Source: Eledone cirrhosa (lineage: Eukaryota). From it: a stretch of DNA of 64,000 bases. The stretch lies in assembly GCA_964016885.1 (NCBI GenBank), contig OZ024742.1, positions 141,918,001 through 141,982,000 of the forward strand, given 5' to 3'. The notes beneath the pieces are model-generated. The model had not been told where the DNA came from and did not search any database. It saw only the letters and a list, made by a program, of their open reading frames with translations. This document shows positions 471 through 61,714 of this stretch, piece by piece. Numbering within the stretch: position 1 is the stretch's first letter; each line of letters starts with the position of its first letter. The position numbers were made by a program, and so were the translations under genes.

Positions 471-1668
<1,198 letters not shown>

Positions 1669-2299: not shown

Positions 2300-2621
2300 G
2301 TAAAGTTATATTTAAAATTGTTGGGTTACAACTAGTAAATATTTATAACTGATATAAAAGCACTCGACAAATATTTGGAGTATATTTACAATATTAAATA
2401 AATGGAAAACTATATTTATAAAACCATATTTATTTCATTATATATATTTCGGGGATATCATATTAACAATATGCTATGCCTTCATCAGACAAAATAAAAC
2501 TGTTTATATTGTATTTTGTCTGATGAAGGCATAGCATATTGTTAATATGATATCCCCGAAATATATATAATGAAATAAATATGGTTTTATAAATATAGTT
2601 TTCCATTTATTTAATATTGTA
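2300..2621. mobile_element. Miniature fold-back PLE terminus (family A): tail 2300-2386, arms 2387-2496 and 2512-2621
   Basis: 110 bp inverted arms with a 15 nt loop, flanked by (TA)n; closely similar to the termini of the 49169-55297 element. Confidence 0.9.
2506..2582 (+). ncRNA. Minimal type I hammerhead ribozyme (mirror copy on minus strand at 2426-2496)
   Basis: atattgtattttgt CTGATGA [stem II aggcatagcatatt-gtt-aatatgatatcccc] GAAA t-atat-a TA / atgaaataaatat; stem I pairs with G:U wobbles. Confidence 0.8.
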
Positions 2622-4058: not shown

Positions 4059-4062
<4 letters not shown>

Positions 4063-9541: not shown

Positions 9542-9549
<8 letters not shown>

Positions 9550-9867: not shown

Positions 9868-9964
<97 letters not shown>

Positions 9965-13355: not shown

Positions 13356-13410
<55 letters not shown>

Positions 13411-13447
13411 AATACAAATATTAATAAAATAGATGTTCTTTTGATCA

Positions 13448-13510
13448 ATTACATTTTATTATACATATTTCGGATGTACAACTGTACGTCCTCATCAGAC
13501 AAAATATAAT
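13448..13510 (-). ncRNA. Minimal type I hammerhead ribozyme
   Basis: attatattttgt CTGATGA ggacgtac-agtt-gtacatcc GAAA t-atgt-a TA / ataaaatgtaat; all three stems form. Confidence 0.9.
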
Positions 13511-14880
13511 GATACATGACATACCCTGAGATGTTAAATGGTTAAGATTTAATCAAGGTAGTGATTAACCCAAGAAAAATTTAACATTTATACCCTAATA
13601 ATGAGAAAATGCGAAAACGTAATAAATTCAACAGAGAAAGTGCGAGTAAGAAAAACGTTGCTTAATGTAACAGTTATATAGATATTAAGATGTATGATAC
13701 TATAATTTTTTAATAAAGGGGGGTAATAAGCTGAAGGAGATTTATTTTTGCCGAAAGTTAAACGGTTAATTTTGAAAATATTTAATTTATGGTATTATAG
13801 GGTGAAGGTTCGAGATTTTGATTTATTTGTTTTTAATTCCTGGTTATTTATATATTAGTTTTATAAATTCTATAAGTGTGTTAACATTTCAAAGCGTCTG
13901 AATTTCATGTGGGTAACATTTATAGGAATTAGTTGGCCAACAGGAGTGAAAGTTTATACTGTTGATTATTTTCCTAAATGTAAACTTTAACGGAGATACT
14001 GAGCGTATTAGGTATGTAAAGCTTGTGAATTACTTATTGTTAGAAATATTTAAATAACGATTATGTATATATATATATATTAATGAGCCAGTATATTTTA
14101 GGTAGATGATAACAAAATAATAGATTGATGCATGTTAAGGTTAAATATACACCTATATATAAGAGGGTGTAAATGCATTAATTATTCTTAGTTCAGAGTA
14201 AACGAAATCAAGAAATTTAGAAGTTAACTAAAGATTTAGAAGTTAACTAAAAATTATATACAGTAATATATAGGGAGGTATATATAGATATATATTAGGT
14301 ATTAATGGTATAGTATACTTTAGGTAGATGATATCGGTTACAATTTTATATAATAAAGTTCTACGTGTTACAGTTATATACATATATGTATATAAGAGAA
14401 AGAATAATAAATGCATGGATAATTCAGATTTCAAGATAATGTCTATAATAATTTATAGTTTGGGTATTTGCTCTATATTTGAATCATGGATATATAAATG
14501 CAGTAGGTATATTTAAAAAAAAAAAAATATAGAAAATATAATTACATACATATTATGATATATTATAAATAGGAGATCAAAAACCGCGTTAAAAAATTCA
14601 CAGTTATAAATAAGATCCGTAAAAATATATGGGTTGGATATTAAACTAAAATTTAAAACTTAGAACGGAAGATAGATAGAGAGATAAAGAAATAAAGAAA
14701 AATAATGGTATTGATCAAAGTTAGTAAAATAATGTTATGTGTGTAAATGTTCAGCATGTTATTGAACAAGTGTCTTTCATTTGAACGTTATTTATTCTAT
14801 AGATAGTTATAAGATAATGCAATATTAAAAGCCATTAATGTTTTTTCCCTGTTCATTATATATGTTTGACAACCAAGTTT

Positions 14881-15444
14881 TTAATGGTTTAATGCTAGAC
14901 TCTCTTTTTTTCTCGTTTTGTGGGAAGCTAAGAATGTGGATGTCGTTTTATGGAGGCAACTAGAGAATAATTCACTTTTTTTGTTATTTAGGGTCTCATA
15001 GTTATTAATAATCAACAGGGTCTCCATTGTACAGAGCGCGCAGTTATTTGATATACTAGAGTTGCGGTAAATTCCACAGTTACGAAGTTTTGTCCAAAGA
15101 ATGGAGTATTTTAAATTTTTCTCTTTTAATGACCATATGAGCTGCTGTGATAAAGACGTGGATGATTTCCTCTTAGAGTTCGAGAATGAGCATTTATGGT
15201 TCGCAAATCGGGCTTTGAATATGGAAGAAGTTGATCCTATGTAGTTGTATATGTTGTGATCAGTTTTTACGGTGCATTTATAAACCAAATTACTATCTAG
15301 ACAATTATTTTGCAAAGGGCAATCAGTTTTATTTCTACAATTACATTTTGGTTTAGTATCATTTATGTTAACTCTATTATTAAGATCAATATGTTGGTTT
15401 TGTTTTAGGATTTTATTGTTTAATTTGGCAATGTTTTGGGCCAT
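14881..15444 (-). CDS. PLE GIY-YIG endonuclease domain (truncated ORF)
   Basis: CNCRNKTDCPLQNNC..NLVY..YIGST..FKARFANH..CALC; homologous to 53206-53856. Confidence 0.9.
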   Translation of the reverse strand: MAQNIAKLNNKILKQNQHIDLNNRVNINDTKPKCNCRNKTDCPLQNNCLDSNLVYKCTVKTDHNIYNYIGSTSSIFKARFANHKCSFSNSKRKSSTSLSQQLIWSLKEKNLKYSILWTKLRNCGIYRNSSISNNCALCTMETLLIINNYETLNNKKSELFSSCLHKTTSTFLASHKTRKKESLALNH

Positions 15445-15603
15445 GTTACTGGTTGTAGAATAGGAGAATTTAAAAGAACATCTATTTTATTAATATTTGC
15501 TTTTTAATATTAATAACTCTGGAAAATTATTACTCGTAGAGTGCTTCCAATCTACTGTAAAACTCATTCTTTGACATACTCATTGAATCTTGTTTAACTA
15601 TTT

Positions 15604-15667
<64 letters not shown>

Positions 15668-17094: not shown

Positions 17095-17230
17095 ACGATA
17101 TAGTAAATATTTATAACTTAAATATACTCCAAATATTTATATCGTAAATATACTCCAAATACTTGTTGAGTGCTTTTATATCAGTTATAAATATTTACTC
17201 GTTGTTAACCCAACAATTTAAATAAAACTT

Positions 17231-17233
<3 letters not shown>
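17095..17233 (+). mobile_element. Family A tail-only insertion
   Basis: Reverse complement of the tails at 2300-2390 and 49169-49260, with small internal rearrangements; TA flanks. Confidence 0.8.
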
Positions 17234-21998: not shown

Positions 21999-22001
<3 letters not shown>

Positions 22002-25185: not shown

Positions 25186-25194
25186 ATATAGTAA

Positions 25195-26765: not shown

Positions 26766-26783
26766 TAGATATATATATATATA

Positions 26784-27090: not shown

Positions 27091-27414
27091 ACAGAAAAAG
27101 GGTGGGGTGTTTTAGAGAGAAAAAGAAGATAGATAGACACTCTGATGAACGATATCAAAATTGTTGCGTCGAATAATATATACAATGAGTTATTTCGACC
27201 CGTAAAATATATATCCATTTGCACTAGACAAAATAATTGGACTGATATAATCAACTAAAATATATCTAGGTGTAGTTCCAGCTTGGCTGCAGTGGAATAA
27301 CTGAAGCCAAATAACTCATTGTATATATTATTCGACGCAACAATTTTGATATCGTTCATCAGAATGTCTATCTATTTTCTTTTTCTCTCTAAAACCCCCC
27401 ACCCCCTCTCTCTC

Positions 27415-33699: not shown

Positions 33700-34826
33700 G
33701 ATATAAATAAATGGAAACTATATTTATAAAACCATATTTATTCTGTTAATTATGTTTCAAGGGTACCAAAACTTTGATACGCGCTCATCAGATAAAATAC
33801 AAAATTTGTTTTATAAATATTGACATATCCAGGAAGGAGATCTTAACGGTTCAAGTTTTTCCTGGATAGTAAAAAGAAAAAGGGGAATGAGAGGAAAAAA
33901 TCAAATATTTCAACTTATTAAGACGAATATGCAAATGAGGTTGAGGTATAGGGCTGAAAAAAATGTTATTTTTAGACGCAGGTAGATTTAAATAATTATT
34001 AGGATATATAATGTATGTGTAGGAAGAAGAAAGAGAAAGAAAGAAAAGCTTGTATTTACGTGAATTTAAAAAGATTGAAATGTTAAGAATTAACAGTTTG
34101 TAGGAATGGTGGAATATGATTCCAGAATTTAAAAAAAATATATAGTTAAATTATGAGTTATAATATTATATATATAATCAATTAGATTATATGAAGAATT
34201 ATGGTTGTAAGTACATTTTATCTTATTATATTGCAACAGGTTGTAAGTATATAAATATCTATATACGTGTACAAGTGTATAAGTATAAGTATTATTGGTG
34301 ATTTTATAGATATAAAACACACGTATTAATTGTTTACGTTTCTAATATGAGTTACGAAGGATGTTGATTTTACATTTTACATATATATTTAAGAAAAAAA
34401 CGTAGTTCAAATTGTAAGAGAAGAACAATTTGTAGATTCAAATATTTTCATCCAACATTGAAAATATTTTCAGAACATTATTAATTTTTTTGAGGTCGGT
34501 GGATTGGCAGTATCGGTAGAGAGTCGGACACCATGCTTTGAAGCATAGAGTTACGTTCCTTTATGATCTGAGTTCAAATCCCGCCGAGGTTAACTTTGCC
34601 TTTCATCCTTACGGGGTCGATAAAATAAAGTACCAGTAATGTACTAGGTAATTGCTGGCCTTGTGCCTAATATAGAAACAATTATTAATTTAGCGAAATT
34701 ATATAATTTATCATACAAGTTATTATGTCTATGTTTGCTCAATTGTAACAGAACAGATAACTCCAATATTATTTATTAACCATTAAATTTGATGAATAAT
34801 TTGATGAATATTTAAATAAGAAATAC
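33697..34826 (-). mobile_element. Family A PLE 3' UTR fragment with hammerhead, interrupted by a SINE
   Basis: Starts at the family A short end (aaatggaaactatatttataaaaccatattta); minus strand has CTGATGA..GAAA at about 33735-33805; right boundary uncertain. Confidence 0.65.
34497..34684 (+). mobile_element. Full-length tRNA-derived SINE (reference copy; about 18 copies in the window)
   Basis: tggcagtatcgg A-box, gagttcaaatccc B-box, central ctttcatccttacggggtcgataaaat..agtacc domain resembling the MetaSINE-type core from memory. Confidence 0.9.
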
Positions 34827-34844
34827 ATATACATATATATTGAG

Positions 34845-37101
34845 AATTTCCCTCCCCCCCGGCCCACACCCTCTCCTCTTCACCCTAGATATCAAGTCCC
34901 TCTATACTGTCATCCCCCACGCCGACGGCCTACGTGCCCTCCGGCACTACCCCGACCTTCGCCCCTCCCCCATCTTCTCCACCCGCACCAACTTCGCCTC
35001 GCTAAGCTGGTCCTCACCCTCAACTGCTTCTCCTTCTCGGGTGAGTTTTACCAACAGGTCACGGGGGTAGCCATGGACACAAGAATGGGCCCAAACTATG
35101 CCAACCTTTTCGTTGGCCATGTTGAGGCCCAAATCTTTGCCCAGTACACCGGCCCCACGCCCGAACTGTACGGTCGTTACATCGATACCTGCATCGGAGC
35201 GACGACCCTCACACGAGAACAGCTCGACTCCTTTCTCTCCTTCTGCTCCTTCCATGGTCCCAACAGCCACTCTCTCTCTGTCCGGCACGCCTTCCGCTGC
35301 ACCTCCTCCAACCTAGTCTATGGACTTCGCTGCACGGAGTGAGGCGCAACTACGTCGGACAGACTGGACGTCGCCCGGCGGACCGTTTCACGGAACACCT
35401 CCGGGATATTCGTCTTGGTGGGATTCCCCGATCGCCCGCCACTTTTGCTCCCCTGGACATTCCGCCCACCACCTCACAATGCCATGGAACACCCGCCACC
35501 CGCCTTACGGTCGAACAACGCACCATCTTCACCCTCCAGACCCACACACTCCCCGGCCCAAACTCCCCACTCCTATTCCTTTAGCCTTCGACCAAACAAA
35601 TTCCCCACTAACACACTCGTCCTTTTCACCGCCCTACTCCCTTGGCCCATCCCACAACTAACAATACTAACGCCCCACTCCCGGCCCTTCCCCAACTAAC
35701 TATACTAACATCCCCACCCCTCCCCCTAACACGCACACACCCACCTGAACATATATACACGCACTCACACACCCTACTACCACCACTAACTCTCACCCAC
35801 ACATCCACTCTGACCACCCCACAACTAACATCACTAACCTCCCCCCGACCCCACTCACACAAACACACACCATCACACACACATAAACCCGCACCTATGT
35901 ACACCACCCACTCCACTCACCCAACCACCACTAACCCCCACTATACACCCGCTTTCAACCCTTTCCCTGCCACCAGTATATGACACACACACTCATCCAA
36001 ACACGCACACACACACCAGTACACTACACTACCTCTTCCGTCCCCAACACCTCTTCTCTCCCTCTAACTCTCCCCGCTCCAACTACACGCCTTCACACAC
36101 ACACATCCCACTAACACCTTTACTAATATACATCCCCCCCACATCACCACCTTCCTCCTCCACCCTTCACACCTACCCATCCTCTCCCCTGTCCACCGCA
36201 CCACCGCACACACAGATACACACACTGACCGTTTCTCCACCTGTCATCCTCTACTGCTATCTCTTCACCCTTCCTTGACCCTCTGACCACTTCCTGTTGC
36301 GCGCGCACCCCACTTCCCTCCACTTCCGACCACCACCAACATTGGATTCTACACCACCGGTCATCGTTCCAGCCATCCACTCCATAACATGAAACATTTC
36401 CAGCATTTCATCGCAGGAATTCACCTTAGGAACTTATCCACGAACATTCACTCACATTTTTTTTCGCACCACGCCACCTACATCCACACCACGTATAAAC
36501 ACAAACACACACGTGCGTACCCCCACATATACACACTCAGCCTCCGGAACCCAAACGCCCTGACCCCTCTCCTTCCACACGCACGCAGACACCGACTTAC
36601 ACCCCACCTCACGCACACACCTTTTCCTGAACATGGAACCTCGTTCTTCCCCCAACTCTCACGTTCACATACACACGCACACACACACGTACACCTACAC
36701 ACATACACAAACACCACCTTCAGCCTTCCCCGTTTCGACCCCCCTCCCCCCCCCCCCCCCCCCCCCCCACCTCCCTCTCCCAACTCCACCCGCCACCACC
36801 CTTACACGCCTCACACCCTTCCACCACTTGGTCATTTTATTGTTTATGTTTTATGTTTATTTTTATGTTTATTTTAATTTTTATTTTTATTTGTTCTCCT
36901 TCCCCCTTTTTTCTAAATGTCTTTCCACTCCTCCTCTACACACCCTCGGAACTCTCCTCCTACCCAATTTTCTCCTGAAGAAGGGCTTATGCCCGAAACG
37001 CGCCCCCCCCCCCCCCCCTCCCCCACTCTCAAGAGCGTGAACCTAATAAACCTATATTTGTCTGCCTCTCTGTTTTCGTTCATTCCCGTCCAATTTTTCA
37101 C

Positions 37102-37133: not shown

Positions 37134-37134
37134 A

Positions 37135-37378
37135 GTAGAAAGGGTATTTAATTTGTTGGAAGTTCAACAAATAAAAATGTTTATAATTGATTTAGAGCAC
37201 TCAACAATTTATTGGAGTAAATATTCAATGATATTAAATAAATGGAAACTATATTTATAAAACCATATTTATTTTATTATATATATTTGAAGGGTATCAA
37301 GACACATTGATACGCTTTCATCAGATAAAATACAATGTTTGTTTTATAAATATAGTTTCCATTTATTTAATATCATTG
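37135..37378. mobile_element. Family A asymmetric fold-back: long minus arm 37135-37336, short inverted arm 37341-37378
   Basis: 37226-37263 is inverted at 37341-37378; tail 37135-37225; hammerhead with GAAA mutated to CAAA. Confidence 0.85.
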
Positions 37379-37439
<61 letters not shown>

Positions 37440-43344: not shown

Positions 43345-43349
<5 letters not shown>

Positions 43350-43530
43350 AACGAGTAGGACCCCGACGGCTGAGCTCAAGCCGTTTCGACGGCTAATTCT
43401 GGACCGCTAAATTAGCCGTCGAAACGGCTTGAGCTCAGCCGTCGGGGGTCCTACTCGTTCCTATTACCCACTCTACTACCCTAAGTATTGAGTACTTTGG
43501 TGCGTTATGGTCCACCTGGTTCCTTACCGT
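43345..43530. mobile_element. Family C fold-back copy (tail on the right)
   Basis: Arms 43345-43398 and 43410-43464; tail to 43530; TA flanks. Confidence 0.88.
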
Positions 43531-46597: not shown

Positions 46598-46881
46598 AAC
46601 AAGCAAATTATAAACATGTAAGTATGTTTTTTGAAACGGTGGGCGAGTTTGTAATTAGAAATTAGAAATTATAAGCTTTCACCGTATTTTAGACTAAAGA
46701 AATTTCTAGCCTGATAGTGGGGTTTATAACCCTCGGAGAAATGGAAAAAGATGAGTGTTGACGTACATGTACGTCAACACTCATCTTTTTCCATTTCTCC
46801 GAGGGTTATAAACCCCACTATCAGGCTAGAAATTTCTTTAGTCTAAAATACGGTGAAAGCTTATAATTTCTAATTTCTAAT
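46597..46881. mobile_element. Family E fold-back: perfect 228 bp palindrome 46654-46881, tail 46597-46653
   Basis: Loopless centre gttgacgtaca|tgtacgtcaac at 46767/46768; TA flanks. Confidence 0.92.
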
Positions 46882-47502: not shown

Positions 47503-47876
47503 AATAAAAGTATGTCTTCCTACATGTAAATAATACACATAGAAATACAAGTATAGCCCGACCGTATGCAATTGTAGTTCAATGGTAAGTTAATAAATTA
47601 ACAAGCCAGAACATAAAATCAAGGGAAAGCAAATAAAGAAAATATTTTAAAATAAATTTCAAAAAATTCACTGTACTTACTATATGTGTCTTTACCGCGG
47701 AATCTTATATTCTCCGAGAGAGAAAAGCTTTCTGACGAGGATCTCTTTCTCAATGGAAATCCGCTTGGATTAGATAATTGATTTGGGATCTGAAACCGCG
47801 GTAAATGCACATATAGTAAGTACAGTGAATGTTTTGAAATTTATTTTTAAATGTTTTCTTTATTTGCTTTCCCTTG

Positions 47877-47883
<7 letters not shown>
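47503..47883. mobile_element. Fold-back element with arms about 47613-47700 and 47796-47883, left extension 47503-47612
   Basis: About 88 bp inverted arms; hammerhead spans the spacer and right arm. Confidence 0.85.
47726..47808 (+). ncRNA. Minimal type I hammerhead with a long stem II
   Basis: gcttt CTGACGA ggatctc...gggatct GAAA c-cgcg-g TA / aatgc. Confidence 0.75.
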
Positions 47884-47974: not shown

Positions 47975-49127
47975 ACTAAACTATCAATTTAATAATTCCA
48001 TTCAATAAAACCACCATAAGCATCAATAACTACCTCTACGCGGGCTGGAAATCGTTTACAAGATCGGATTAAGTGGTCCTTGTTCATATCGGACATGACT
48101 CGAACTATGGCAGCTTTCAAAGGATCTCTGGTGCTATGGGGGTGTTCCTTGACATTTTTCTCAACGATGCTCCATACATAGTAGTCCAGTGGATTTAAAT
48201 CTGGACAATTAGGGCTGCCAAATATTGGGGTGATGTGATCATGCAACTTGTCGGCCATCCATTCTTGTGTCATTTGAGCCTTGTGTGATGCTGCAGAATC
48301 TTGTTTAAAGACATAAGGCCTTCTATTGCATACACTGTTGATCCAAGGCTTAACAACTTTATCCAGAACCTCAATATATGCAGTAGCATTCATCCTAAGG
48401 CCTTGTGGAAAAAAGTGAGGAAGCATCACATGTTTTTCATTGCTAACAACACCCAAAACCATGACACTTGCAGGACATTTTGTGTGCATTACACTTGGAA
48501 CCTCAGGAGGGTCTGCACATAGCCATCTGTCATTTCTTCTGTTAGATTTCTGGTCCTGGTCAATGTTTTTCTCATCTGAGTAAAACCAAATCACACCATC
48601 TTCTGATGGATTTTTAAGTTTGTTCAAAGGTCTTTTGAATCTGATTAAACGGTTTTCTTTTGTTTTTTCTGACATGAATCGACCTCTCCTCATCACGTAA
48701 GATTTGTATCTGATGTCTTCATGCACAACATTTCCGAATGTTTTTTCTGACACATCAACATATTTTGCAATTGACCTCATTGATTTTCCTGGATTGTCGT
48801 CAATGTTTTGCTTAACTTCCTGAATAAATTCAGGTGCCCTGGTAGAATCAGAGTGTTTGGAATGTTTTTTTACGTTTTGATACAGGTAATACGCTTCCAT
48901 CTTCCTTCTCTAACTCACACCGAATCTAGTAGACAAAAGATCTTGCAACTTTCACAACGAGAAATGTCAAAATCACCATGCTTAGCTTTCAAAGCCACAA
49001 TCACAGCATGCCTTATCATTTCATTAGTAAGCATAGTTATTTTTATTGTTATTTTCTGAAATAGAAGTTCAATAAAAATTAGTCAAATAAAATAATGATT
49101 AAAACTGCTTGTGACCTCCGCACCCTA
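47975..49127 (-). mobile_element. Tc1/mariner (maT, DD37D) transposon; one end visible
   Basis: Transposase ORF; right end ..gtgacctccgcaccc|ta; no matching left TIR seen. Confidence 0.85.
47989..48900 (-). CDS. DD37D transposase, N-terminus probably frameshifted
   Basis: WFYSDEK, FKQDSAASH, SPNCPDLNPLDY; 37 residues counted between the second and third catalytic D. Confidence 0.9.
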   Translation of the reverse strand: MEAYYLYQNVKKHSKHSDSTRAPEFIQEVKQNIDDNPGKSMRSIAKYVDVSEKTFGNVVHEDIRYKSYVMRRGRFMSEKTKENRLIRFKRPLNKLKNPSEDGVIWFYSDEKNIDQDQKSNRRNDRWLCADPPEVPSVMHTKCPASVMVLGVVSNEKHVMLPHFFPQGLRMNATAYIEVLDKVVKPWINSVCNRRPYVFKQDSAASHKAQMTQEWMADKLHDHITPIFGSPNCPDLNPLDYYVWSIVEKNVKEHPHSTRDPLKAAIVRVMSDMNKDHLIRSCKRFPARVEVVIDAYGGFIEWNY

Positions 49128-49293
49128 TATATATATACCGTTCGCACCCTATTTATATATATATATATGCAAAAGTTTTATTTTAAATTGTTGGGATACA
49201 ACGAGTAAATATTTTATAACTGATATAAAAGCACTCAACTGGTTTTGGAGTATTTTACGATATTAAACAAATGGAAACTACATTTATAAAACC

Positions 49294-49370
49294 ATATTTA
49301 TTTCATTATATATATTTCAGGGATATCATATTAAAAATATGGTATGCCCTCTTCAGACAAAATACAATAT
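49294..49370 (-). ncRNA. Minimal hammerhead, left arm
   Basis: Mirror of 55183-55259. Confidence 0.8.
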
Positions 49371-50696
49371 ATAGACAGTTTTATAAATAACTTTGACATA
49401 CCTTAGAATTTACAACTTCCATTTAAAAAGTTGTTACGGTAATGAAAATGTTAAGGACGGTTAGAAAGAAAGACGGAGAAAAAAGGAAAAAAGAAAAAAG
49501 AAAAAGAAGGAGAAAAGAAAAAGAAAGAGCGGAAGGTGAAGAAGATGAAGAAATGTATGTAAAGAGAAAACCACCAAATGAGAGATCTATGAGGGAAGGG
49601 GGTACTGTAATTATTCATTTATTTATTTATTTATTTAGTGTTAAGGATACGGGGAGAAATAAAAACAAAAATAAATAAGGAGAGGTAGATCGAGTAATAT
49701 CTATTATACGAGGTGGGAGAGATAGGGGAGGGGTGATATACAGGAGATAGAGTTAAAACAGCCGATATAAGAGTAGAGGGAGGAGGAGAGGAGATATACT
49801 TAGAAACAAAAATGATAGTTTTAAAATATTATGTTTCATCAGTCTATCAATTCCTATGAATTATAATGTAAACATCAATATTCATGAATGAGACACATAT
49901 CAATAATGTGTGAAAAAATAATGACTATATGTTTAGTTTAAAAATTCATAGGTTTATAATCAAAATCTGAGATAAAACCTCAAAAAATACTGGAATACAT
50001 AAGTATATATATGTATTTTCATGAAAAAAGAGAAAAGAGAAAGAAAAAGAGAAGGTTATCTCAAATTGACATTATAGACACATGTGAGTTTACATGATCA
50101 GCTCTGTAAATTTTTATTTCACATGGAAATCTTCATTGCGTCAAAAAGATTTTACCATACACATAAGTGTACATACATATATATATACATAAAATATACA
50201 TTATTAATAATAATAATATTCTTGCCCCTTCTTACATGATTATCGTACAAGCATAGAATAGAACAGATATCAATATATTAAAATATTAAAAACGCCGAGA
50301 ATATTTTCCTCCCCAGAATATCTAGGGCCGTAATAAAAACACAGTGTGCCCAGCATATCAATCAATCCCTCCAATTTATTTGACAATACTGCCAAGTTTA
50401 TTAGAAGCAATCAGAGTCAAAAGCAAACAAAACCAAAATTATTCACCAAACTTATTTAGCAGAAATCATTCAAAAAAAACTTTAGGATACTCGGTTGTTC
50501 TACAGATGCTCTTATATTTATTATAGAAGTTTATCTAGCTTAAAAATTTTATTCAATAGATTTGGATCATCACCATTTTAAGGTAGTTTAATTACATTAT
50601 TAATTATATATTCATGAAGAAGGTTTAAAGAATTGAAGGAATCGAAAGATTTATCGCCAAGTTTTCTAAAATAATTAAAAGTCTTAAGTAAATATA

Positions 50697-51347
50697 CTAC
50701 ATTTTAAACTTATATTTATATCTATGTCTGCAGCAACTGAATAAATTGGTCCGTAAATTAAGGGAATTTTTAGATTTTAGTATAAAGAATATCTCCTCCG
50801 CGCAGAGGTCACATGTCTCAGAGGAGGAGTTAAAAGGAATCCCTCTTGAGACTATATTCCAAACCGTCGAATATCCAACGTTATCATGTTTAAGTTGCCA
50901 GAGTAAGCCTGATAGTGATGTTGAAGATTTTTTGTTTGGATCTGTGAAAGAATTCTTGTGATTATTATAGCGAAGTTTAAATTCTGTCGAGGTGGAACCA
51001 ACATAATTAAAAGAATTTAAGTCAGTTTTAACATTACAGTTGTATATTATATTTTTAACTAAGCAATTGTTATTTAACGGGCATTTAGATCTATCTCTAC
51101 AGTTACAGTTGTTTACTTGAATATTGTTTATGCTATTATCGGTATTTTGGCTAGGTTTTAGATTCCTATTATTTATTCTATTAATATTTTGTGCTAAATT
51201 TTTGGTGGACGAGTAGGTTAATTTTATAGTATGTCTATTGAAAATTGAGTGATACTTATGTGTTCTAGGGAATCGTTTGTCAAGAGCATTAAAAAATAGT
51301 TTAGCGATGTGGGTTTTAATGTTTAGTGAGAAAGGGGGGCAAACCAA
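50697..51347 (-). CDS. PLE linker plus GIY-YIG endonuclease, left arm
   Basis: CNCRDRSKCPLNNNC..NIIY..YVGST..FKLRYNNH..CDLCAEE. Confidence 0.92.
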   Translation of the reverse strand: MVCPPFSLNIKTHIAKLFFNALDKRFPRTHKYHSIFNRHTIKLTYSSTKNLAQNINRINNRNLKPSQNTDNSINNIQVNNCNCRDRSKCPLNNNCLVKNIIYNCNVKTDLNSFNYVGSTSTEFKLRYNNHKNSFTDPNKKSSTSLSGLLWQLKHDNVGYSTVWNIVSRGIPFNSSSETCDLCAEEIFFILKSKNSLNLRTNLFSCCRHRYKYKFKM

Positions 51348-52274
51348 ATTATGTTTCTAGTTCTATTTCTTTTCTGGTTTTTGGAATTATTGTAATTCTT
51401 TCTATTATAGTTGTTAAAGTTGTTACCGTAATTAAAATTGTTGTTATTTTGGTTAGTTTGTCTATTATTATTATCGATGTACATAATTTTATCACTATAT
51501 CCTGCTCTAGCTAACGCTTCATTGTAATAGTGGGCTTTTTGGTCGAAAATATTTTTATTAGATGAGATTCTAGAGATACGTTTTTGAACAGAGTTCACTA
51601 TAGTATTTTTAACAGATCTGGGGTGGTTGGAGTTAAAGTTGACATAATTCAAGTTTTCATTTAACTTGTGAAATGGATAGTGAAGACATGTGTTGAGATT
51701 TAATGTTACATCTAGGAAATTGACTATTCTATGGTTATTCTCAATTTCTATTTTTAGATTAAGGTAATTAAAAAATTGTATAATTTGTTTTCTTTTTCTA
51801 TTTAGTTCAGAGTTATTATTTTCAATAAGTAAAAGCATGTCATCTCGATATAATCCTCCGGTAGCACCGGGTATTTTCCTATGCAGCGAATTAATTATAA
51901 ATAGGCCCACAAGGTCTGTTACCTGAGCTGAGTCAGATGATCCCATAGTAATGTCAAAATTGCTATCCCTATCTGCCCTAGTCCATAGTTGGTTATTAAA
52001 TTCTATCAATGTTTTTCTTGCCGATAGTATAATGTGCATTTCATTGCTAGTTAGGTCTGTATGTTTGAATGCATAATTTAGTGCCTTATTTAGTAGGTTA
52101 GGGGTAATAGATGAATAGTAGTTAGAAATATCTAGTTGAATAAATTTATTATTATTGTTATATTTAATTTCTTTAAACCACTCAATAACCTCTCCAGTTC
52201 CCTTCCACAAGCTTAAGTTAGGTGAACAATTCAAGTTCTTAATTTGCTGTATAACCCTGTCTAGAATGTTTTTG
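51323..52274 (-). CDS. PLE reverse transcriptase, 5'-truncated, left arm
   Basis: FIQLDISNYYSSI, FDITMGSSDSAQVTDLVG, GLYRDD, VNFLDVTL, SNHP. Confidence 0.92.
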
Positions 52275-53230
52275 TTAGCAAAAACATTCTAGACAGGGTG
52301 ATACAGCAAATTAAGAACTTGAATTGTTCACCTAACTTAAGCTTGTGGAAGGGAACTGGAGAGGTTATTGAGTGGTTTAAAGAAATTAAATATAACAATA
52401 ATAATAAATTTATTCAACTAGATATTTCTAACTACTATTCATCTATTACCCCTAACCTACTAAATAAGGCACTAAATTATGCATTCAAACATACAGACCT
52501 AACTAGCAATGAAATGCACATTATACTATCGGCAAGAAAAACATTGATAGAATTTAATAACCAACTATGGACTAGGGCAGATAGGGATAGCAATTTTGAC
52601 ATTACTATGGGATCATCTGACTCAGCTCAGGTAACAGACCTTGTGGGCCTATTTATAATTAATTCGCTGCATAGGAAAATACCCGGTGCTACCGGAGGAT
52701 TATATCGAGATGACATGCTTTTACTTATTGAAAATAATAACTCTGAACTAAATAGAAAAAGAAAACAAATTATACAATTTTTTAATTACCTTAATCTAAA
52801 AATAGAAATTGAGAATAACCATAGAATAGTCAATTTCCTAGATGTAACATTAAATCTCAACACATGTCTTCACTATCCATTTCACAAGTTAAATGAAAAC
52901 TTGAATTATGTCAACTTTAACTCCAACCACCCCAGATCTGTTAAAAATACTATAGTGAACTCTGTTCAAAAACGTATCTCTAGAATCTCATCTAATAAAA
53001 ATATTTTCGACCAAAAAGCCCACTATTACAATGAAGCGTTAGCTAGAGCAGGATATAGTGATAAAATTATGTACATCGATAATAATAATAGACAAACTAA
53101 CCAAAATAACAACAATTTTAATTACGGTAACAACTTTAACAACTATAATAGAAAGAATTACAATAATTCCAAAAACCAGAAAAGAAATAGAACTAGAAAC
53201 ATAATTTGGTTTGCCCCCCTTTCTCACTAA
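52274..53230 (+). CDS. PLE reverse transcriptase, 5'-truncated, right arm (motifs resemble Nematis-type PLEs; clade uncertain)
   Basis: Same motifs as the left arm; frame is open from the palindrome centre (VSKNILDRVIQQIK). Confidence 0.92.
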   Translation, partial: VSKNILDRVIQQIKNLNCSPNLSLWKGTGEVIEWFKEIKYNNNNKFIQLDISNYYSSITPNLLNKALNYAFKHTDLTSNEMHIILSARKTLIEFNNQLWTRADRDSNFDITMGSSDSAQVTDLVGLFIINSLHRKIPGATGGLYRDDMLLLIENNNSELNRKRKQIIQFFNYLNLKIEIENNHRIVNFLDVTLNLNTCLHYPFHKLNENLNYVNFNSNHPRSVKNTIVNSVQKRISRISSNKNIFDQKAHYYNEALARAGYSDKIMYIDNNNRQTNQNNNNFNYGNNFNNYNRKNYNNSKNQKRNRTRNIIWFAPLSH

Positions 53231-53856
53231 ACATTAAAACCCACATCGCTAAACTATTTTTTAATGCTCTTGACAAACGATTCCCTAGAACACATAAGTA
53301 TCACTCAATTTTCAATAGACATACTATAAAATTAACCTACTCGTCCACCAAAAATTTAGCACAAAATATTAATAGAATAAATAATAGGAATCTAAAACCT
53401 AGCCAAAATACCGATAATAGCATAAACAATATTCACGTAAACAACTGTAACTGTAGAGATAGATCTAAATGCCCGTTAAATAACAATTGCTTAGTTAAAA
53501 ATATAATATACAACTGTAATGTTAAAACTGACTTAAATTCTTTTAATTATGTTGGTTCCACCTCGACAGAATTTAAACTTCGCTATAATAATCACAAGAA
53601 TTCTTTCACAGATCCAAACAAAAAATCTTCAACATCACTATCAGGCTTACTCTGGCAACTTAAACATGATAACGTTGGATATTCGACGGTTTGGAATATA
53701 GTCTCAAGAGGGATTCCTTTTAACTCCTCCTCTGAGACATGTGACCTCTGCGCGGAGGAGATATTCTTTATACTAAAATCTAAAAATTCCCTTAATTTAC
53801 GGACCAATTTATTCAGTTGCTGCAGACATAGATATAAATATAAGTTTAAAATGTAG
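53206..53856 (+). CDS. PLE linker plus GIY-YIG endonuclease, right arm
   Basis: Continues the RT frame after a 1 nt deletion in a C6 run (IIWFAP/PFSLN). Confidence 0.92.
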   Translation: MVCPPFSLNIKTHIAKLFFNALDKRFPRTHKYHSIFNRHTIKLTYSSTKNLAQNINRINNRNLKPSQNTDNSINNIHVNNCNCRDRSKCPLNNNCLVKNIIYNCNVKTDLNSFNYVGSTSTEFKLRYNNHKNSFTDPNKKSSTSLSGLLWQLKHDNVGYSTVWNIVSRGIPFNSSSETCDLCAEEIFFILKSKNSLNLRTNLFSCCRHRYKYKFKM

Positions 53857-55182
53857 TATATTTACTTAAGACTTTTAATTATTTTAGAAAACTTGGCGAT
53901 AAATCTTTCGATTCCTTCAATTCTTTAAACCTTCTTCATGAATATATAATTAATAATGTAATTAAACTACCTTAAAATGGTGATGATCCAAATCTATTGA
54001 ATAAAATTTTTAAGCTAGATAAACTTCTATAATAAATATAAGAGCATCTGTAGAACAACCGAGTATCCTAAAGTTTTTTTTGAATGATTTCTGCTAAATA
54101 AGTTTGGTGAATAATTTTGGTTTTGTTTGCTTTTGACTCTGATTGCTTCTAATAAACTTGGCAGTATTGTCAAATAAATTGGAGGGATTGATTGATATGC
54201 TGGGCACACTGTGTTTTTATTACGGCCCTAGATATTCTGGGGAGGAAAATATTCTCGGCGTTTTTAATATTTTAATATATTGATATCTGTTCTATTCTAT
54301 GCTTGTACGATAATCATGTAAGAAGGGGCAAGAATATTATTATTATTAATAATGTATATTTTATGTATATATATATGTATGTACACTTATGTGTATGGTA
54401 AAATCTTTTTGACGCAATGAAGATTTCCATGTGAAATAAAAATTTACAGAGCTGATCATGTAAACTCACATGTGTCTATAATGTCAATTTGAGATAACCT
54501 TCTCTTTTTCTTTCTCTTTTCTCTTTTTTCATGAAAATACATATATATACTTATGTATTCCAGTATTTTTTGAGGTTTTATCTCAGATTTTGATTATAAA
54601 CCTATGAATTTTTAAACTAAACATATAGTCATTATTTTTTCACACATTATTGATATGTGTCTCATTCATGAATATTGATGTTTACATTATAATTCATAGG
54701 AATTGATAGACTGATGAAACATAATATTTTAAAACTATCATTTTTGTTTCTAAGTATATCTCCTCTCCTCCTCCCTCTACTCTTATATCGGCTGTTTTAA
54801 CTCTATCTCCTGTATATCACCCCTCCCCTATCTCTCCCACCTCGTATAATAGATATTACTCGATCTACCTCTCCTTATTTATTTTTGTTTTTATTTCTCC
54901 CCGTATCCTTAACACTAAATAAATAAATAAATAAATGAATAATTACAGTACCCCCTTCCCTCATAGATCTCTCATTTGGTGGTTTTCTCTTTACATACAT
55001 TTCTTCATCTTCTTCACCTTCCGCTCTTTCTTTTTCTTTTCTCCTTCTTTTTCTTTTTTCTTTTTTCCTTTTTTCTCCGTCTTTCTTTCTAACCGTCCTT
55101 AACATTTTCATTACCGTAACAACTTTTTAAATGGAAGTTGTAAATTCTAAGGTATGTCAAAGTTATTTATAAAACTGTCTAT

Positions 55183-55259
55183 ATATTGTATTTTGTCTGA
55201 AGAGGGCATACCATATTTTTAATATGATATCCCTGAAATATATATAATGAAATAAATAT
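55183..55259 (+). ncRNA. Minimal type I hammerhead, right arm
   Basis: atattgtattttgt CTGAAGA gggcataccatatt-ttt-aatatgatatccct GAAA t-atat-a TA / atgaaataaatat. Confidence 0.8.
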
Positions 55260-55655
55260 GGTTTTATAAATGTAGTTTCCATTTGTTTAATATCGTATAT
55301 ATATATATATATATATATTTATAAATAACATTATTATTTCTGCACCATTTCTTTAACATGTGCAACACCACCATTCTACACCAATACATATCACTATCAT
55401 TTGATAATGCATACAAATGGTGAAACCGGTAATAGACAATTATTAAATATATAAATAGATAAATAAATGCCATTGTTAATTAATAAATAAATCAACTAAT
55501 ACCTTAACACTTCACACATAGTAAAATATTTCGTTTTAATCATTTTCTAACCCAGAAAAAAGAGAGAAATAAATAAAAAGGGAAAAAAAAATTTTTTCTT
55601 CCTAATAATCGTCTCTTTCTCCCTGTTTTCATATATATATATATATATAAATATA

Positions 55656-57268
55656 TCCCCCACTAACACCACTAACACACCCCTCCTTTTCACCGCCCAC
55701 CCCACACTAACAATACTAACACCTCCACTCCACCCCTCATCTGACCACACTTCCCCAACTAACATACTAACATCCCTTCCCTCCCCTCTTCTCCTCCTCC
55801 CCCTCCTTATCACACGCACACACCCACCGGCACATATATACACGCGCTCACACTAAACACACACCCTACTACCACCACTAACCCTCACCCCCACACCTCT
55901 CACCCCCACACCTCCATCCCACCACCCCGCAACTAACCTCACTAACACCCCCTAACCCCAAGCACACGAACACACGCACCCACTTACACCACCCACCCCA
56001 CACGCAACTAACATCACTAACACCCCCAACCCCACGCACACGTACCCACACACCCTCGTACACCACCAACTCTACACACCCTACCACCACTAACCCCCAC
56101 TCACACCTGCATTCAACCACTCCCCACCTCCCGTATACTAACACCCACTAACACCTCTTCATCAAACTACACACACACCAGTACACCACACTGCCTCCAT
56201 AGAACCACACACACCCTTCTTTCTCCCCGCTCCACCCACACCCTCGCTCCACACTCACTCATCCCACTAACACCCCTACTAATACACACACACACACACA
56301 CACCCTCCTCACTCCAACTTTCACACCTACCCATCCTCGCCCCCTTACCATTCCACCGACTGCTGCTATGCCATCTGACCACCTCCCAGCACTAACAGAC
56401 CACAGCACTCCCACTGCTGACCACTTCCTGTTGCGCGCGCACCCCACATCTCTCCTCTTCCGACCACCGCTTCATGGATTACCCACACGCAGAATTTGAC
56501 TTACAACCAATCCACTATACATCCTTGGAACTTACCAACTTTTCAACCATCCTCTTACGTAATTACCTATATAACTCACCCACACACACACCCAAAAAAA
56601 AATTTTTTCTCCACACGCCACCCACACCACAACACGCTTAAACCCCACATACACGTGCTTCCCACCACATATTTACACCCTCAGCCTCCTGATTCCTCTC
56701 CCCCCAGCCCCCTATCCACACACGCACAGACACTCCGACCCACAAAAACACCCCCCACACACACCTCTTCCTGAACATGCAACCCCGTTCTTCCCCCAAC
56801 TCTTACTTTCACATACACACATACACACACACACACACGCACACCTACACACACACACCACCTTCAGCCCTCCCCGCTCGGACACCCCGTCTCCCTCTCC
56901 CCACTCCACCCGCCACCACCCTACTCACCCCACACCCTTCCACCACCTGTTTACCCCCCTTTTAATTTCAGTTTATTTTGATCATGCCTTTATTTTTAAA
57001 TTTTCTCATTCCCTGTATTTTGATCATGCTTTATTTTTATTTTTTATCTTTATTTGTTTTTTTTCATTCGCACCGTTTCCTTTCGCTATATGTCTCTCCA
57101 CCACTCCCCTACACACCTTTTGAACTCTGTTCCCACACACTTCTCACCTGAGGAAGGGCTTATGCCCGAAACGTCGTCCCCCACCTACCCCCCACTCTCC
57201 TGAGCGTGAAATTAATAAACATTTATTGTACTGCCTCTCTGTTTTGTCCCTGTTCAAATTTTTCCATT
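55656..57268 (+). mobile_element. Second Neptune-like PLE copy, 3' UTR only
   Basis: Colinear with 35600-37102 (gaccacttcctgttgcgcgcgcacccc, cgttcttcccccaactct, gagcgtgaa..taataaac..ctgcctctctgtttt). Confidence 0.88.
57148..57178 (+). ncRNA. Hammerhead core with GTC triplet
   Basis: CTGAGGA agggc-ttat-gccc GAAA c-gtc-g TC; stem I not evident. Confidence 0.6.
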
Positions 57269-58983: not shown

Positions 58984-58985
<2 letters not shown>

Positions 58986-59200
58986 GAGTAGGACCCCGAC
59001 GGCTGAGCTCAAGCCGTTTCGACGGCTAGTTCTGGACTAAAATTTGGATTCATTCTGGATTTTAGTTCAGAATTAGCCGTCGAAACGGCTTGAGCTCAGC
59101 CGTCGGGGTCCTACTCGTTCCTATTACCCACTCTACTACCCTAAGTATTGAGTACTTTGGTGCGTTATGGTCCATCTGGTTCCTTACCACATTTCCTTCG

Positions 59201-59202
<2 letters not shown>
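58984..59202. mobile_element. Family C fold-back copy with the longest arms
   Basis: Arms about 58984-59045 and 59058-59118; tail to 59202. Confidence 0.88.
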
Positions 59203-59250
<48 letters not shown>

Positions 59251-59253
<3 letters not shown>

Positions 59254-59418
59254 GAAGTTCTATTTAAATTGTTGGGATACAACAAGCAAATATTTTTATA
59301 ACTGATATAAAGCACTCAACAAATTATTGGAGTAAAACAGCGCACCATAATTTAACTTGGTGTCCTTGAAATATGTATAATGAAATAAATATGGTTTTAT
59401 AAATATAGTTTCCATATC

Positions 59419-59420
<2 letters not shown>
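59251..59420. mobile_element. Family A insertion: minus-strand tail joined to a plus-strand short end
   Basis: 59251-59335 matches the 49169-49252 tail; 59366-59420 matches the 55233-55296 terminus. Confidence 0.8.
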
Positions 59421-59970: not shown

Positions 59971-61600
59971 ATACTTCGGGAGGGTCGTATTTGTGTAATA
60001 ATATTGCCAGAATTAATAACAGACCACACTCACTGTTTGGTTGGTTTTCACTTCTGTGTCTTTTATATCGGTTAATTTAATTTATTCGGTCCTCAATGTT
60101 ACCATTGACTGACCAACGGTCAAAAATTCAGATACAATATAGACACAAACACATATATATAGTCTAACAAAGTTCTTTCGTTGCACATCTACAACATCGT
60201 CAGTGGTGCACATCTGCAACATCGTCAGTGGAAACACCCATGTTTCCTCCCGTTGCATTGTATGCCTACGCCATCTTTATTTAGTCTGTTTATTTATTTA
60301 TTTATTTGTTGTTTTTTTTTGTCTTCTTTGCGCATGCGTTTGCGTGTGTGTATAGTGTTTTGTTTGATGTGTGTTCTTGTTTGGGTGACTATATTGGTTA
60401 ATGTATTCTATCTTAGTTTACTAGTGTTTGTTTATATGTGTTTGTTGTTATTGTGCTTGTGTATGTATTTATTTATTTATTATTTATTTATTTATTTATT
60501 TATACTTCTCTTAGGTCAGTGTTGTTTGTTTGGGTGTTGTTATTCCATTCATTTTTTTCTGTTTATCCTTGGCCTTCTAAATTCTATTTCGCTGGCCTCT
60601 AAGATTTGCCTATCTGGTGGGTCATTTCTATGTTTAGATATTCTAACTTCTGTGTTGTCTATGTTACCGTTGCGTTGTTGTCTGGCATGTTCGTATAGTA
60701 CTGAACCGTTTTTCGTCCTTTTAGTTCCCCCCAGTGTTGGTCTATCCTTTCACCTATGCTACGAGCTGTCTCGCCTATGTATGTTGTTGTCATGTTTCTG
60801 CAAGTACCCTCTGTACATCTTATGCTATAGACTACGTTTCTAGTTTTACAGTTTATCTGGCGGTTTACTTTACATATGATACATTTCATATTAGTACAGT
60901 GGGTTTGCTTAAAAGGGTAGGTTTTGCTGATCAGAGATTTTATGGTGGTTCCTGGCTTTTCTACCACCTTAATCTTTAAGTGGGGATTTCTCAGGGCCTT
61001 TCTACACTGGTTAGCTAATTTCCCTCCAAGGGGTAGCGTCCACAAACATGACACTCTGGTATCTCTGGTTGTCGTACAATGAGGTGGCTTTCCCTATCTT
61101 ATGTCTAGTCCTATCTAAGCTATTCCATGATTTGCTCCTGTATAATGGGCAAATTCCTTTCATGTCCAGTTCTATGAGGGTCTTATACTTCTCCGTGGCT
61201 CCTTCGTATACTCTGATTCTGTCTCTTTGGTTGTACCCAGAGAACTGCATGCGGTTGATGAAGTGTTGGATGTGTCTTTCCATTTTTGTTGGATCGCACA
61301 CACGGGACACGTTCTTCATCACTCGTACCAAGTCTGCGATCCAGTCTACTGGACATTGCTGAGTTTTGAGTATCATATATTTGGAGGCCATGGGTTTAGC
61401 ATAGTGTGAGTGGAGAATTAGGGCTCTCTCGTCTATAGTGTTAATCCAAAGTTCTGTGCCTAATACAGGTAGTCTATTGTTAGGGTGTTTGGAGGGGTAG
61501 TCGATAGTTACAGTTATACTCTGGTGTATGGAATTAGCTATCTGCTGGATGCTTTCCATTGTGCTACGTTCTAAATCAAACTTGTTAGTGCTCTCTTGTG
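59966..61600 (-). mobile_element. 5'-truncated, frameshifted PLE (RT thumb plus GIY-YIG; Naiad-like motifs, tentative)
   Basis: ANSIHQSITVTIDYPSKHPNNRLPVL..HYAKPMAS; CxxxxCxxC..CKTRNVVYSIRC..YIGETARSIGERI..H; hammerhead and family G terminus downstream. Confidence 0.88.
60171..60231 (-). ncRNA. Hammerhead-like core with a 25 bp internal duplication
   Basis: Minus strand reads CTGACGA tgttgcagatgtgcacca CTGACGA tgttg-tagatgtg-caac GAAA gaac. Confidence 0.55.
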
Positions 61601-61613
61601 GATATATATATAA

Positions 61614-61714
61614 TGAAGGAAGTATAGTAAGGAACCAGGTGGACCATAACGCACCAGAGTACTCGATACTTTGGGTAGTAGAGTGGGTAATAGGAAAAGG
61701 TTCAGGACCTTTTC
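61614..61714. mobile_element. Family C tail with a minimal hairpin
   Basis: Tail matches 4075-4143; ends gaaaaggt-tcagg-accttttc. Confidence 0.8.

What the first reader, a model, noticed from the sequence alone, without database searches (positions are those of the whole stretch)
49169..55297. Near-perfect 6.04 kb palindrome of a Penelope-like RT/GIY-YIG element
Two 3021 bp head-to-head arms are joined by a 4 nt loop (ttag) inside the RT coding region. I spotted only two differences outside the loop (52253/52300, silent; 51117/53436, Q/H). The left arm alone has an 87 nt tail, exactly as in the 322 bp miniature at 2300-2621, and both end at the same ..aatatYgta base. That shared asymmetric end argues for a biological product rather than a read fold-back chimera. 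Such long palindromes are normally unstable, so the insertion is probably recent.
Basis: partly seen in the sequence, partly recalled or inferred. Interest (0 to 1): 0.85.

Follow-up and report, generated by a model that had tools for sequence, protein, structure and literature searches.

The report
Mirror-image Penelope-type jumping gene insertion
This 6-kb mirror-image sequence is two truncated, broken copies of a Penelope-like jumping gene set back to back in a TA repeat, a layout already described for these elements; it is probably real rather than an assembly error, and its unusually exact centre likely records both cut DNA ends copying the same RNA and then joining end to end.

Summary
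The palindrome is there: arms 49256-52274 and 52279-55297 (3019 nt, not 3021), loop TTAG, two mismatches, an 87-nt tail on the left only, (TA)n at both ends. Each arm is a 5'-truncated Penelope-like element with RT and GIY-YIG folds, Hydra-clade motifs and a hammerhead-like 3' end. An inverted truncated copy with a one-sided tail is a described PLE layout. It recurs in this window in small copies and in a second coding element, and the scan noted it before in this genome and others. Relatives' reads show that the loop is native sequence of the tail-less arm, with at most one base of pairing at the axis, which argues against a stem-primed fold-back. Best reading (0.5): both DNA ends primed on one broken RNA, and the RT jumped onto the partner cDNA. 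No read crossing the centre was found, but no run of the source individual was available, so an assembly artefact keeps about 0.15. Verdict: new member of a known kind, interest 0.3.

The parts
49154..49168 (.). left (TA)n target run
49169..49255 (-). 87-nt one-sided tail; outer RT start site inferred at 49169
   Evidence: tail = interval between two RT start sites in PAc (PMC11167929)
49256..52274 (-). left arm, 3019 nt, 5'-truncated element read leftwards
49299..49364 (-). hammerhead-like motif of the left arm (cleavage untested)
50697..51333 (-). thumb/linker and GIY-YIG frame of the left arm
51323..52274 (-). 5'-truncated RT frame of the left arm
52275..52278 (+). 4-nt loop TTAG; native coding sequence of the right, tail-less arm
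   Evidence: relatives' reads and contigs align from 52275 and diverge before it
52279..55297 (+). right arm, 3019 nt, ends at the tail boundary (inner RT start site inferred)
52277..53230 (+). RT core and Asn-rich linker; about 210 N-terminal residues missing (median of homologues)
53214..53219 (+). C6 run, site of the frameshift present in both arms (mirror 51334-51339)
53220..53856 (+). CxCX5C linker and GIY-YIG endonuclease with CxxC and CxH motifs
53857..55297 (+). 1441-nt 3' non-coding region
55189..55254 (+). hammerhead-like motif of the right arm: core CTGAAGA at 55197, 8-bp stem I, long stem II, 2-bp stem III with ATAT loop
   Evidence: no Rfam match
55298..55317 (.). right (TA)n target run
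2300..2621 (.). miniature two-armed copy of the same family: 87-nt tail left, short spacer from the tail-less arm
37134..37382 (.). older two-armed miniature of the family; tailed arm longer
59251..59419 (.). miniature of the family: tail only on the left, short tail-less arm on the right
17096..17233 (.). miniature of the family in the opposite orientation, tail on the right
13401..15606 (-). second coding Hydra-type element, same layout but unequal arms: about 2.07-kb tail-less arm, about 40-nt inverted arm plus about 95-nt tail

Best explanation
This is a dead, 5'-truncated Penelope-like retrotransposon with Hydra-clade motifs, present as two head-to-head arms in a (TA)n run, likely made in one insertion in which both cut DNA ends primed reverse transcription on the same broken RNA and the two cDNAs were then likely joined end to end. 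Shown: the arms, tail, loop, target runs, domains and shared frameshift. Inferred steps: (1) a family protein made by another, intact copy nicked both strands of a TA repeat; (2) the left end primed at the outer start site (tail included), the right end at an inner site 87 nt upstream; (3) both cDNAs ran to the same broken RNA 5' end inside the RT region, the tail-less one 4 nt further; (4) that RT added or carried one C, paired it with the 3'-terminal G of the partner cDNA and copied the partner back to the left flank, giving a 4-nt loop; (5) repair filled the other strand. The frameshift was likely already in the template RNA, and the two arm differences would be one copying error per cDNA or later mutations.
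For: Both ends are element 3' ends in (TA)n, one with and one without the tail. PAc protein cleaves and extends both strands, starts at two sites that bound the tail, and is predicted to be a dimer (PMC11167929, main text read). The same ends occur in four miniatures of the family and in the coding element at 13401-15606, whose arms are about 2070 and 40 nt, so arms can be made separately. The loop is native to the tail-less arm. The relatives' base before it is C, not the window's G (loose ends before 52275: 101 reads in X8, 66 in X9, 4 contigs in X2, 1 in X4), so at most 1 bp pairs at the axis, and the cDNA end has no predicted hairpin (MFE 0). Template jumping by R2 RT depends on non-templated added bases (PMC8857657, abstract and section 10). 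Each arm carries one state that relatives lack: right arm at 53436 (all laid depth in X1-X3 shows the left arm's letter); left arm at 52253 (no such variant among the 40 rows shown, 10 hidden). Small spacers are common in the window: 5 of 15 small palindromes have 6 nt or less, median 13. Two independent uniform stops would fall within 4 nt in 0.2-0.3% of cases.
Against: No read or contig crosses this centre: depth 0 at 52240-52269 and no joints in 4 of 4 runs; these runs hold only about half of the words and are not the source individual. Jumping onto a partner cDNA has not been shown for any PLE in what I read, and PMC8857657 doubts that jumping is physiologically needed for non-LTR elements. 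The shared frameshift fits a single cDNA copied back on itself at least as well. The native base before the loop comes from copies several percent diverged; the source copy may have had G there (Val in 26 of 70 homologues with the motif). The spacer sample is biased towards symmetric copies, and small elements may move as units. Other junctions of the family show microhomology by eye (about 3 nt at 2494-2499, about 11 nt at 37341-37352), so more than one joining route exists.
Confidence: 0.5

Rival explanations
1. Same two-ended insertion, but one long tail-less cDNA snapped back on itself and was copied into a hairpin; a short tailed cDNA from the other end then annealed to the new strand and supplied the tail.
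For: Explains near-zero spacer, the loop from the tail-less arm and the shared frameshift with a single RT slip. cDNA snap-back is a recorded junction class of R2 insertions (PMC11371274, passages), and self-priming on an antisense template was proposed for PLE junction palindromes (PMC3846280, passages).
Against: No stem at the axis in relatives' sequence and no predicted hairpin at the cDNA end; a 1-bp stem with a 4-nt loop is a poor primer (inference). It needs an extra strand-exchange step to add the tail. One derived state in each arm needs at least one later mutation.
Confidence: 0.22
2. Assembly artefact: a fold-back read or a lost central spacer, joined through near-identical copies to two different flanks.
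For: No read crosses the centre. The shared frameshift sits in the arm's only C run of 6 or more, the kind of error that polishing would copy to both arms. Complex PLE insertions are known to trouble assemblies (PMC8557442, passages).
Against: A folded read would mirror the tail and the left flank; instead the right arm stops at the family's tail boundary and enters a different flank. The arms differ by two substitutions, each away from the relatives' state in a different arm. Strand-switch joints of this family exist in short-read contigs: 55166/55234 in X1, X2 and X3 (one sample) and 52335/55228 in X4.
Confidence: 0.15
3. Two independently truncated cDNAs joined by ordinary end joining; the symmetry is chance, picked out because it is striking.
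For: Unequal arms occur in the window (13401-15606, 59251-59419, 37134-37382). Zero to one base of homology is normal for blunt joining (general knowledge). The scan reads hundreds of windows of this genome.
Against: 0.2-0.3% per insertion under uniform stops, and less if long arms are rare; the shared frameshift needs a common source; small spacers are frequent.
Confidence: 0.08
4. An older inverted pair was made symmetric after insertion by central deletion and arm-to-arm conversion.
For: Would spread one frameshift to both arms and erase differences (general knowledge of near-perfect palindromes, recalled).
Against: Differences from relatives are enriched for silent changes (14 of the 23 coding rows shown against 0.34 expected, P=0.006; a selected subset of 267 differences), unlike a decayed old copy. 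Central deletions usually lengthen rather than remove a spacer (recalled).
Confidence: 0.05

Closest known systems
Hydra clade of C-terminal EN+ Penelope-like elements (Craig et al. 2021, PMC8557442; Hydra-1_Obim of Octopus bimaculoides; Penelope-13_HM)
   Same: RT then GIY-YIG, CxCX5C linker, CxxC and CxH around the conserved E and N, no CCHH, hammerhead near the 3' end, (TA)n target. Penelope-13_HM is listed with a 5'-truncated inverted copy at its 5' end (nt 1-966).
   Different: Longer: 3110 nt remain although about 210 codons are missing, against mostly under 3 kb; 1.44-kb 3' region. Tail of 87 nt against the 30-40 nt quoted for PLEs. Hammerhead sequence differs from that listed for Hydra-1_Obim, so a different family. 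Arms equal to within 4 nt.
Inverted/palindromic Penelope insertions of Adineta vaga (Arkhipova et al. 2013, PMC3846280)
   Same: Head-to-head arrangement, palindromes at the inverted junction, optional one-sided tail, Asn-rich stretches in the ORF, mobilisation in trans.
   Different: There the inverted piece described in detail is a short pLTR with a target-site duplication; here both arms are 3 kb and no duplication can be read in (TA)n.
PAc (Poseidon of Anolis carolinensis) in vitro reaction (Frangieh et al. 2024, PMC11167929)
   Same: Both target strands cleaved and extended, AT-rich target, two RT start sites that bound the tail, hammerhead upstream of them.
   Different: Another clade; tail 30-40 nt; the paper does not show how the two cDNAs are joined or how inverted copies arise.
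L1 twin priming and R2 cDNA snap-back (PMC10191854, PMC11371274; passages)
   Same: Inversions made during target-primed reverse transcription by second-strand priming or by the cDNA 3' end priming on cDNA.
   Different: Twin priming inverts a different part of the RNA without duplicating it (recalled); here both arms copy the same 3' part from two fixed starts.

Membership tests
EN+ Penelope-like elements | reverse transcriptase domain | tested here: met
   AlphaFold model pLDDT 87.9; Foldseek: 73 chains at E<=0.001, the top rows RTs including TERTs; YRDD motif. Pfam and a PDB sequence search found nothing.
EN+ Penelope-like elements | GIY-YIG endonuclease C-terminal to RT | tested here: met
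   VIA-align Z 9.2, rmsd 2.1, 88 aligned to I-TevI; next T4 EndoII (7.4) and UvrC (6.2). Foldseek only weak, E 0.38-0.48.
EN+ Penelope-like elements | single ORF | tested here: inconclusive
   This copy is frameshifted in both arms. Relatives' contigs with one more C at that run: 4, 7, 2 and 2 in X1-X4, holding 22%, 51%, 18% and 100% of depth; the rest is not resolved. Homologous proteins are continuous there.
EN+ Penelope-like elements | inverted 5'-truncated copy and one-sided tail | tested here: met
EN+ Penelope-like elements | pLTR / partial tandem | not testable with these tools
   The 5' part of the element is absent and no genome is held. 43 of 77 distant related loci show direct repeats.
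Hydra clade | CxCX5C linker motif | tested here: met
   CNCRDRSKC; 71 of 79 homologues of 680 aa or more
Hydra clade | CxxC and CxH around conserved E and N; CCHH absent | tested here: met
   pattern found at residue 173 of the EN frame; one Cys only inside the GIY-YIG core; 76 of 79 homologues
Hydra clade | RWK motif and DKT in place of DKG | tested here: inconclusive
   Region missing from this copy. In homologues RW[KR] 70 of 79, DKT 68 of 79, DKG 7 of 79.
Hydra clade | canonical hammerhead ribozyme near the 3' end | tested here: inconclusive
   Core and stems present; 94.3% of cells paired, 3 of 22 pairs with two-sided changes in 8 related rows. No Rfam match, fold z about 0, cleavage untested.
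Hydra clade | insertion into (TA)n | tested here: met
   both ends; 5.3% of other positions lie within 10 nt of such a run
Hydra clade | placement in the Hydra branch of the RT tree | not tested
   No named Hydra reference protein was among the session's sequences; the assignment rests on motifs.
MITE or foldback DNA transposon | symmetric terminal inverted repeats, no RT origin | tested here: not met
   ends are asymmetric (tail) and the arms encode RT and GIY-YIG

The most novel reading that the evidence does not exclude
Penelope-type elements insert by a two-headed reaction in which one RNA is copied twice from two fixed start sites and the trailing RT jumps from the RNA 5' end onto the partner cDNA. 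Every broken template then yields a near-perfect palindrome, of which this 6-kb copy is a pristine record. In a host with palindromes as dense as in this window (16 listed, 14% of 64 kb, 4.5% without this one), such insertions could be a main source of the long double-stranded RNA behind the high A-to-I hyper-editing reported for octopus (PMC5625713), if the host is indeed an octopod.
Probability: 0.3. Interest if true: 0.6.

Novelty: new member of a known kind. Interest (0 to 1): 0.3.

Why it matters
As a structure it is ordinary for Penelope-like elements. Its value is as a clean junction record for an open question: Craig et al. 2021 name the formation of tandem and inverted PLE structures as unresolved, and the PAc system now allows a test. 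This copy gives sharp predictions: co-terminal cDNAs, one base of pairing at most, loop from the tail-less arm. If real, it also shows that a 6-kb palindrome with a 4-nt loop can persist in an animal germ line, and that such insertions can supply self-folding double-stranded RNA.

Tried and rejected
No whole genome is held, so no genome-wide count of arm lengths and no empty-site search. Pfam: no family for either frame; PDB sequence search with alignment A2: 0 hits. Rfam: only miRNA hairpin look-alikes on the palindrome centre, all below the gathering score, and no hammerhead. The look-up of sequencing runs: no RNA holder listed. The best holders share about half the words and are not the source, so the missing junction is no refutation; bins without cover are not read as deletions. 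Programmed frameshifting between RT and endonuclease: rejected, no X XXY YYZ slippery heptamer in frame by eye and homologues are continuous. Stem-primed fold-back at the axis, my first idea from homologous 'IVSK' proteins: not supported by relatives' DNA. Target-site duplication: cannot be read in (TA)n. A conserved tail hairpin: the consensus of 5 tails gave 5 invariant pairs, no covariation. Distant relatives in metagenome contigs: 14 of 77 loci have some inverted self-match; I inspected 10 of those 14, and only L025 and L041 (same junction, perhaps one insertion) clearly show an inverted 3' end next to a truncated ORF; none holds a multi-kb palindrome, which short-read contigs could not carry. 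Look-ups of earlier findings by sequence: nothing. Paper searches gave nothing on PLE palindromes in octopus or on fold-back artefacts of this kind.
Full report
Observation. The window is 33% G+C, free of Ns and rich in (TA)n. The longest inverted repeat has arms 49256-52274 and 52279-55297, 3019 nt each, 4 nt apart. Walking the arms base by base gives the loop TTAG and two mismatches, 52253/52300 and 51117/53436; the first is silent (Val), the second Gln/His. Left of the left arm lie 87 nt (49169-49255) with no partner on the right; both outer ends abut (TA)n. The miniature at 2300-2621 has the same 87-nt tail and the same tail-less end. Ten of ten block shuffles of the masked window gave no inverted hit.

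What the arms encode. Read outward from the centre, each arm has an RT frame and, after a frameshift at a run of six C (53214-53219, mirrored at 51334-51339), an endonuclease frame, then 1441 nt of non-coding sequence. Pfam and a PDB sequence search found nothing, so I folded both frames. The RT model (pLDDT 87.9) matches reverse transcriptases, telomerases among them, with 73 chains at E<=0.001. The endonuclease model (pLDDT 86.3) matches I-TevI at Z 9.2, rmsd 2.1, 88 residues, then T4 EndoII and UvrC; Foldseek alone gave only E 0.38-0.48 for the same chains. The closest proteins are 45-51% identical and mostly unnamed; the best named ones come from the octopod Argonauta hians. An octopod-like host is my inference from this and from composition; it is not established. 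About 210 residues (median; range 187-312) are missing upstream of the loop.

Clade. Craig et al. 2021 (PMC8557442; section 11 read, passages, supplement searched and part 2 of 59 read) define Hydra by a CxCX5C linker, CxxC and CxH around the conserved E and N, no CCHH, RWK and DKT motifs, a hammerhead, and (TA)n targets. The first three are met in this copy. RWK and DKT lie in the missing part but are present in 70 and 68 of 79 long homologues. A hammerhead core with stems I-III lies at 55189-55254 and its mirror; in 8 related rows 94.3% of cells pair and 3 of 22 pairs change on both sides, but Rfam has no match, the fold is no more stable than shuffles, and cleavage is untested. No tree with named Hydra references was built. 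The supplement lists an Octopus bimaculoides Hydra family with a different hammerhead, and Penelope-13_HM with an inverted 5'-truncated copy. Supplement parts that I did not read may hold closer relatives.

The layout is general. Four more copies of this family in the window carry the tail (2300, 17096, 37134, 59251), and a fifth ends at the tail-less boundary (33700). A second coding element at 13401-15606 (EN frame 44% identical) has a tail-less arm of about 2070 nt, an inverted arm of about 40 nt and a tail of about 95 nt, with (TA)n at both ends. Of 13 palindromes from other families, 6 have one end at a TA run and the other 58-112 nt from one; 9 have at least one end within 10 nt of a run, against 5.3% of background positions. 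The other 7 do not fit the tail pattern cleanly. Spacers of 15 small palindromes run from 0 to 113 nt, median 13, with 5 at 6 nt or less; this sample favours symmetric copies. In print, an inverted truncated copy with a one-sided tail and palindromic junctions are described PLE traits (PMC8557442; PMC3846280, passages and section 7), and the tail lies between two RT start sites in PAc, which cleaves and extends both target strands (PMC11167929, parts 1-2 of 4, the whole main text). The scan's own notes report the same layout many times, in this genome up to 10.7 kb; these are unchecked leads.

Evidence from public runs. The best holders share about half of the words, so they are relatives, not the source individual. 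Findings: (a) reads and contigs align from 52275 and leave the window before it, so the loop is native sequence of the tail-less arm and the relatives' preceding base is C, not G (101 and 66 reads, 4 and 1 contigs; a second class breaks off at 52277: 61 and 42 reads, 1 and 1 contigs); (b) contigs with one more C at the frameshift run occur in all four runs, at 22%, 51%, 18% and 100% of depth, so an intact frame exists, while the remainder is unresolved; (c) at 53436 all laid depth in X1-X3 has the left arm's letter, and at 52300 the right arm's G is the majority, with no T variant among the 40 rows shown (10 hidden), so each arm has one derived state; (d) strand-switch joints of the family occur in short-read contigs, 55166/55234 in X1-X3 (one sample) and 52335/55228 in X4; (e) nothing covers 52240-52269 and no joint appears at the axis. 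Of the 40 differences shown (227 more hidden), 23 fall in the two frames; 14 are silent against 0.34 expected for transitions (P=0.006), so the copy descends from a lineage under selection rather than from long decay.

Real or artefact. A folded read mirrors everything, tail and flank included. Here the right arm stops at the family's tail boundary and enters another flank, and the arms differ by two substitutions in opposite arms. An artefact would need a fold-back or lost spacer plus a misjoin between two copies 99.9% alike. It is not excluded: the shared frameshift sits in a homopolymer and no spanning read was seen. I give it 0.15.

Mechanism. Both ends are element 3' ends, so both DNA ends likely primed cDNA, at two fixed sites 87 nt apart. 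What needs explaining is why two 3-kb arms stop within 4 nt; independent uniform stops would do so in 0.2-0.3% of cases. Snap-back of one cDNA has precedent (PMC11371274, passages; proposed for PLEs in PMC3846280) and explains the shared frameshift simply, but the axis offers at most one base pair and the cDNA end has no predicted hairpin. I therefore favour two cDNAs that ran off the same broken RNA end, with the tail-less RT jumping onto the partner cDNA through one base. R2 RT jumps through non-templated bases in vitro, though the authors doubt a physiological need (PMC8857657, abstract and section 10). This route places the tail on one side without an extra step and gives one copying error per arm. 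The frameshifted template would have been moved in trans, which PLEs can do (PMC3846280). All these steps are inferred. Searches returned no paper that shows how PLE head-to-head junctions form, in a library that lacks most subscription journals.

Age. Arm divergence is 6.6e-4 (95% interval 0.8e-4 to 2.4e-3). With the scale of 0.09 substitutions per site in 25 million years quoted for octopus repeats (PMC13282606, passages), this is about 0.09 million years (0.01-0.33; my arithmetic), if both differences are later mutations and the host is similar. RT errors would make it younger, arm conversion older.

Verdict. A new family member of a known kind in a known layout, unusually long and symmetric, dead. 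Interest 0.3. The bolder reading, double copying of one RNA with a jump onto the partner cDNA and a link to the abundant double-stranded RNA and hyper-editing reported for octopus (PMC5625713, passages; that paper left octopus repeats unannotated), has probability 0.3 and would deserve 0.6. Also seen as passages only: bioRxiv 10.64898/2026.07.22.740005 and PMC10191854.

Noticed in passing
window 13401-15606 and 26016-26770: Second Hydra-type family: coding copy with a long tail-less arm, short inverted arm and about 95-nt tail; hammerhead core at 13498 (-); another tailed 3' copy at 26389-26770.
   Followed up: partly
window 21999-22411: 324-nt palindrome of another family with a hammerhead core in each arm, 6-nt spacer and 89-nt tail on the left, in (TA)n.
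   Followed up: partly
window 46598-46879 and 1670-1838: Perfect palindrome, arms of 112-114 nt with no loop, 58-nt one-sided tail; a relative with the same tail at 1670 continues into other sequence. No canonical hammerhead core found.
   Followed up: partly
window 4059-4220, 24681-24738, 43348-43530, 58984-59201: Four copies of a G+C-richer palindromic family with a one-sided tail of about 70-85 nt and different spacers (0, 4, 11, 15 nt).
   Followed up: partly
window 9547-9873, 47504-47880, 24752-25047, 27100-27404, 25193-25418, 23444-23561, 24459-24572: Further palindromes; the first two have one-sided tails, 24752-25047 has (TA)n directly at both ends and no tail, the others were not resolved.
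   Followed up: partly
window 55330-57268 and 34800-37101: Two diverged copies (65% over 1.3 kb) of a C-rich element with a compact hammerhead core (57148, 36975); the second has RT- and GIY-YIG-like frames at 34800-35584 by eye, so another PLE family. The first directly flanks the palindrome.
   Followed up: no
window 47989-48909 (-): Tc1/mariner-type transposase frame (Pfam DDE_3, E 4e-07) directly left of the palindrome.
   Followed up: no
window 60203-61712 (-) and 247 (-): Fragments of another RT/GIY-YIG-like element with hammerhead cores at 60203/60228; a similar core at 247.
   Followed up: no
window 55129-55342 in runs X1-X3: Summed contig depth over the hammerhead and 3' end is 0.5-1.2 million against 5-80 thousand over the ORF, hinting at a very large population of short 3' copies; the tool warns that this depth is no copy number.
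   Followed up: no
window 474-1670: About 1.2 kb of (TA)n with TG, CA and GC variants, itself self-complementary.
   Followed up: no
L062:1-5083 and L077:1-4943: Distant relatives assembled as full tandem dimers (99.9% and 99.6% identical units), possibly tandem arrays or circular forms.
   Followed up: no
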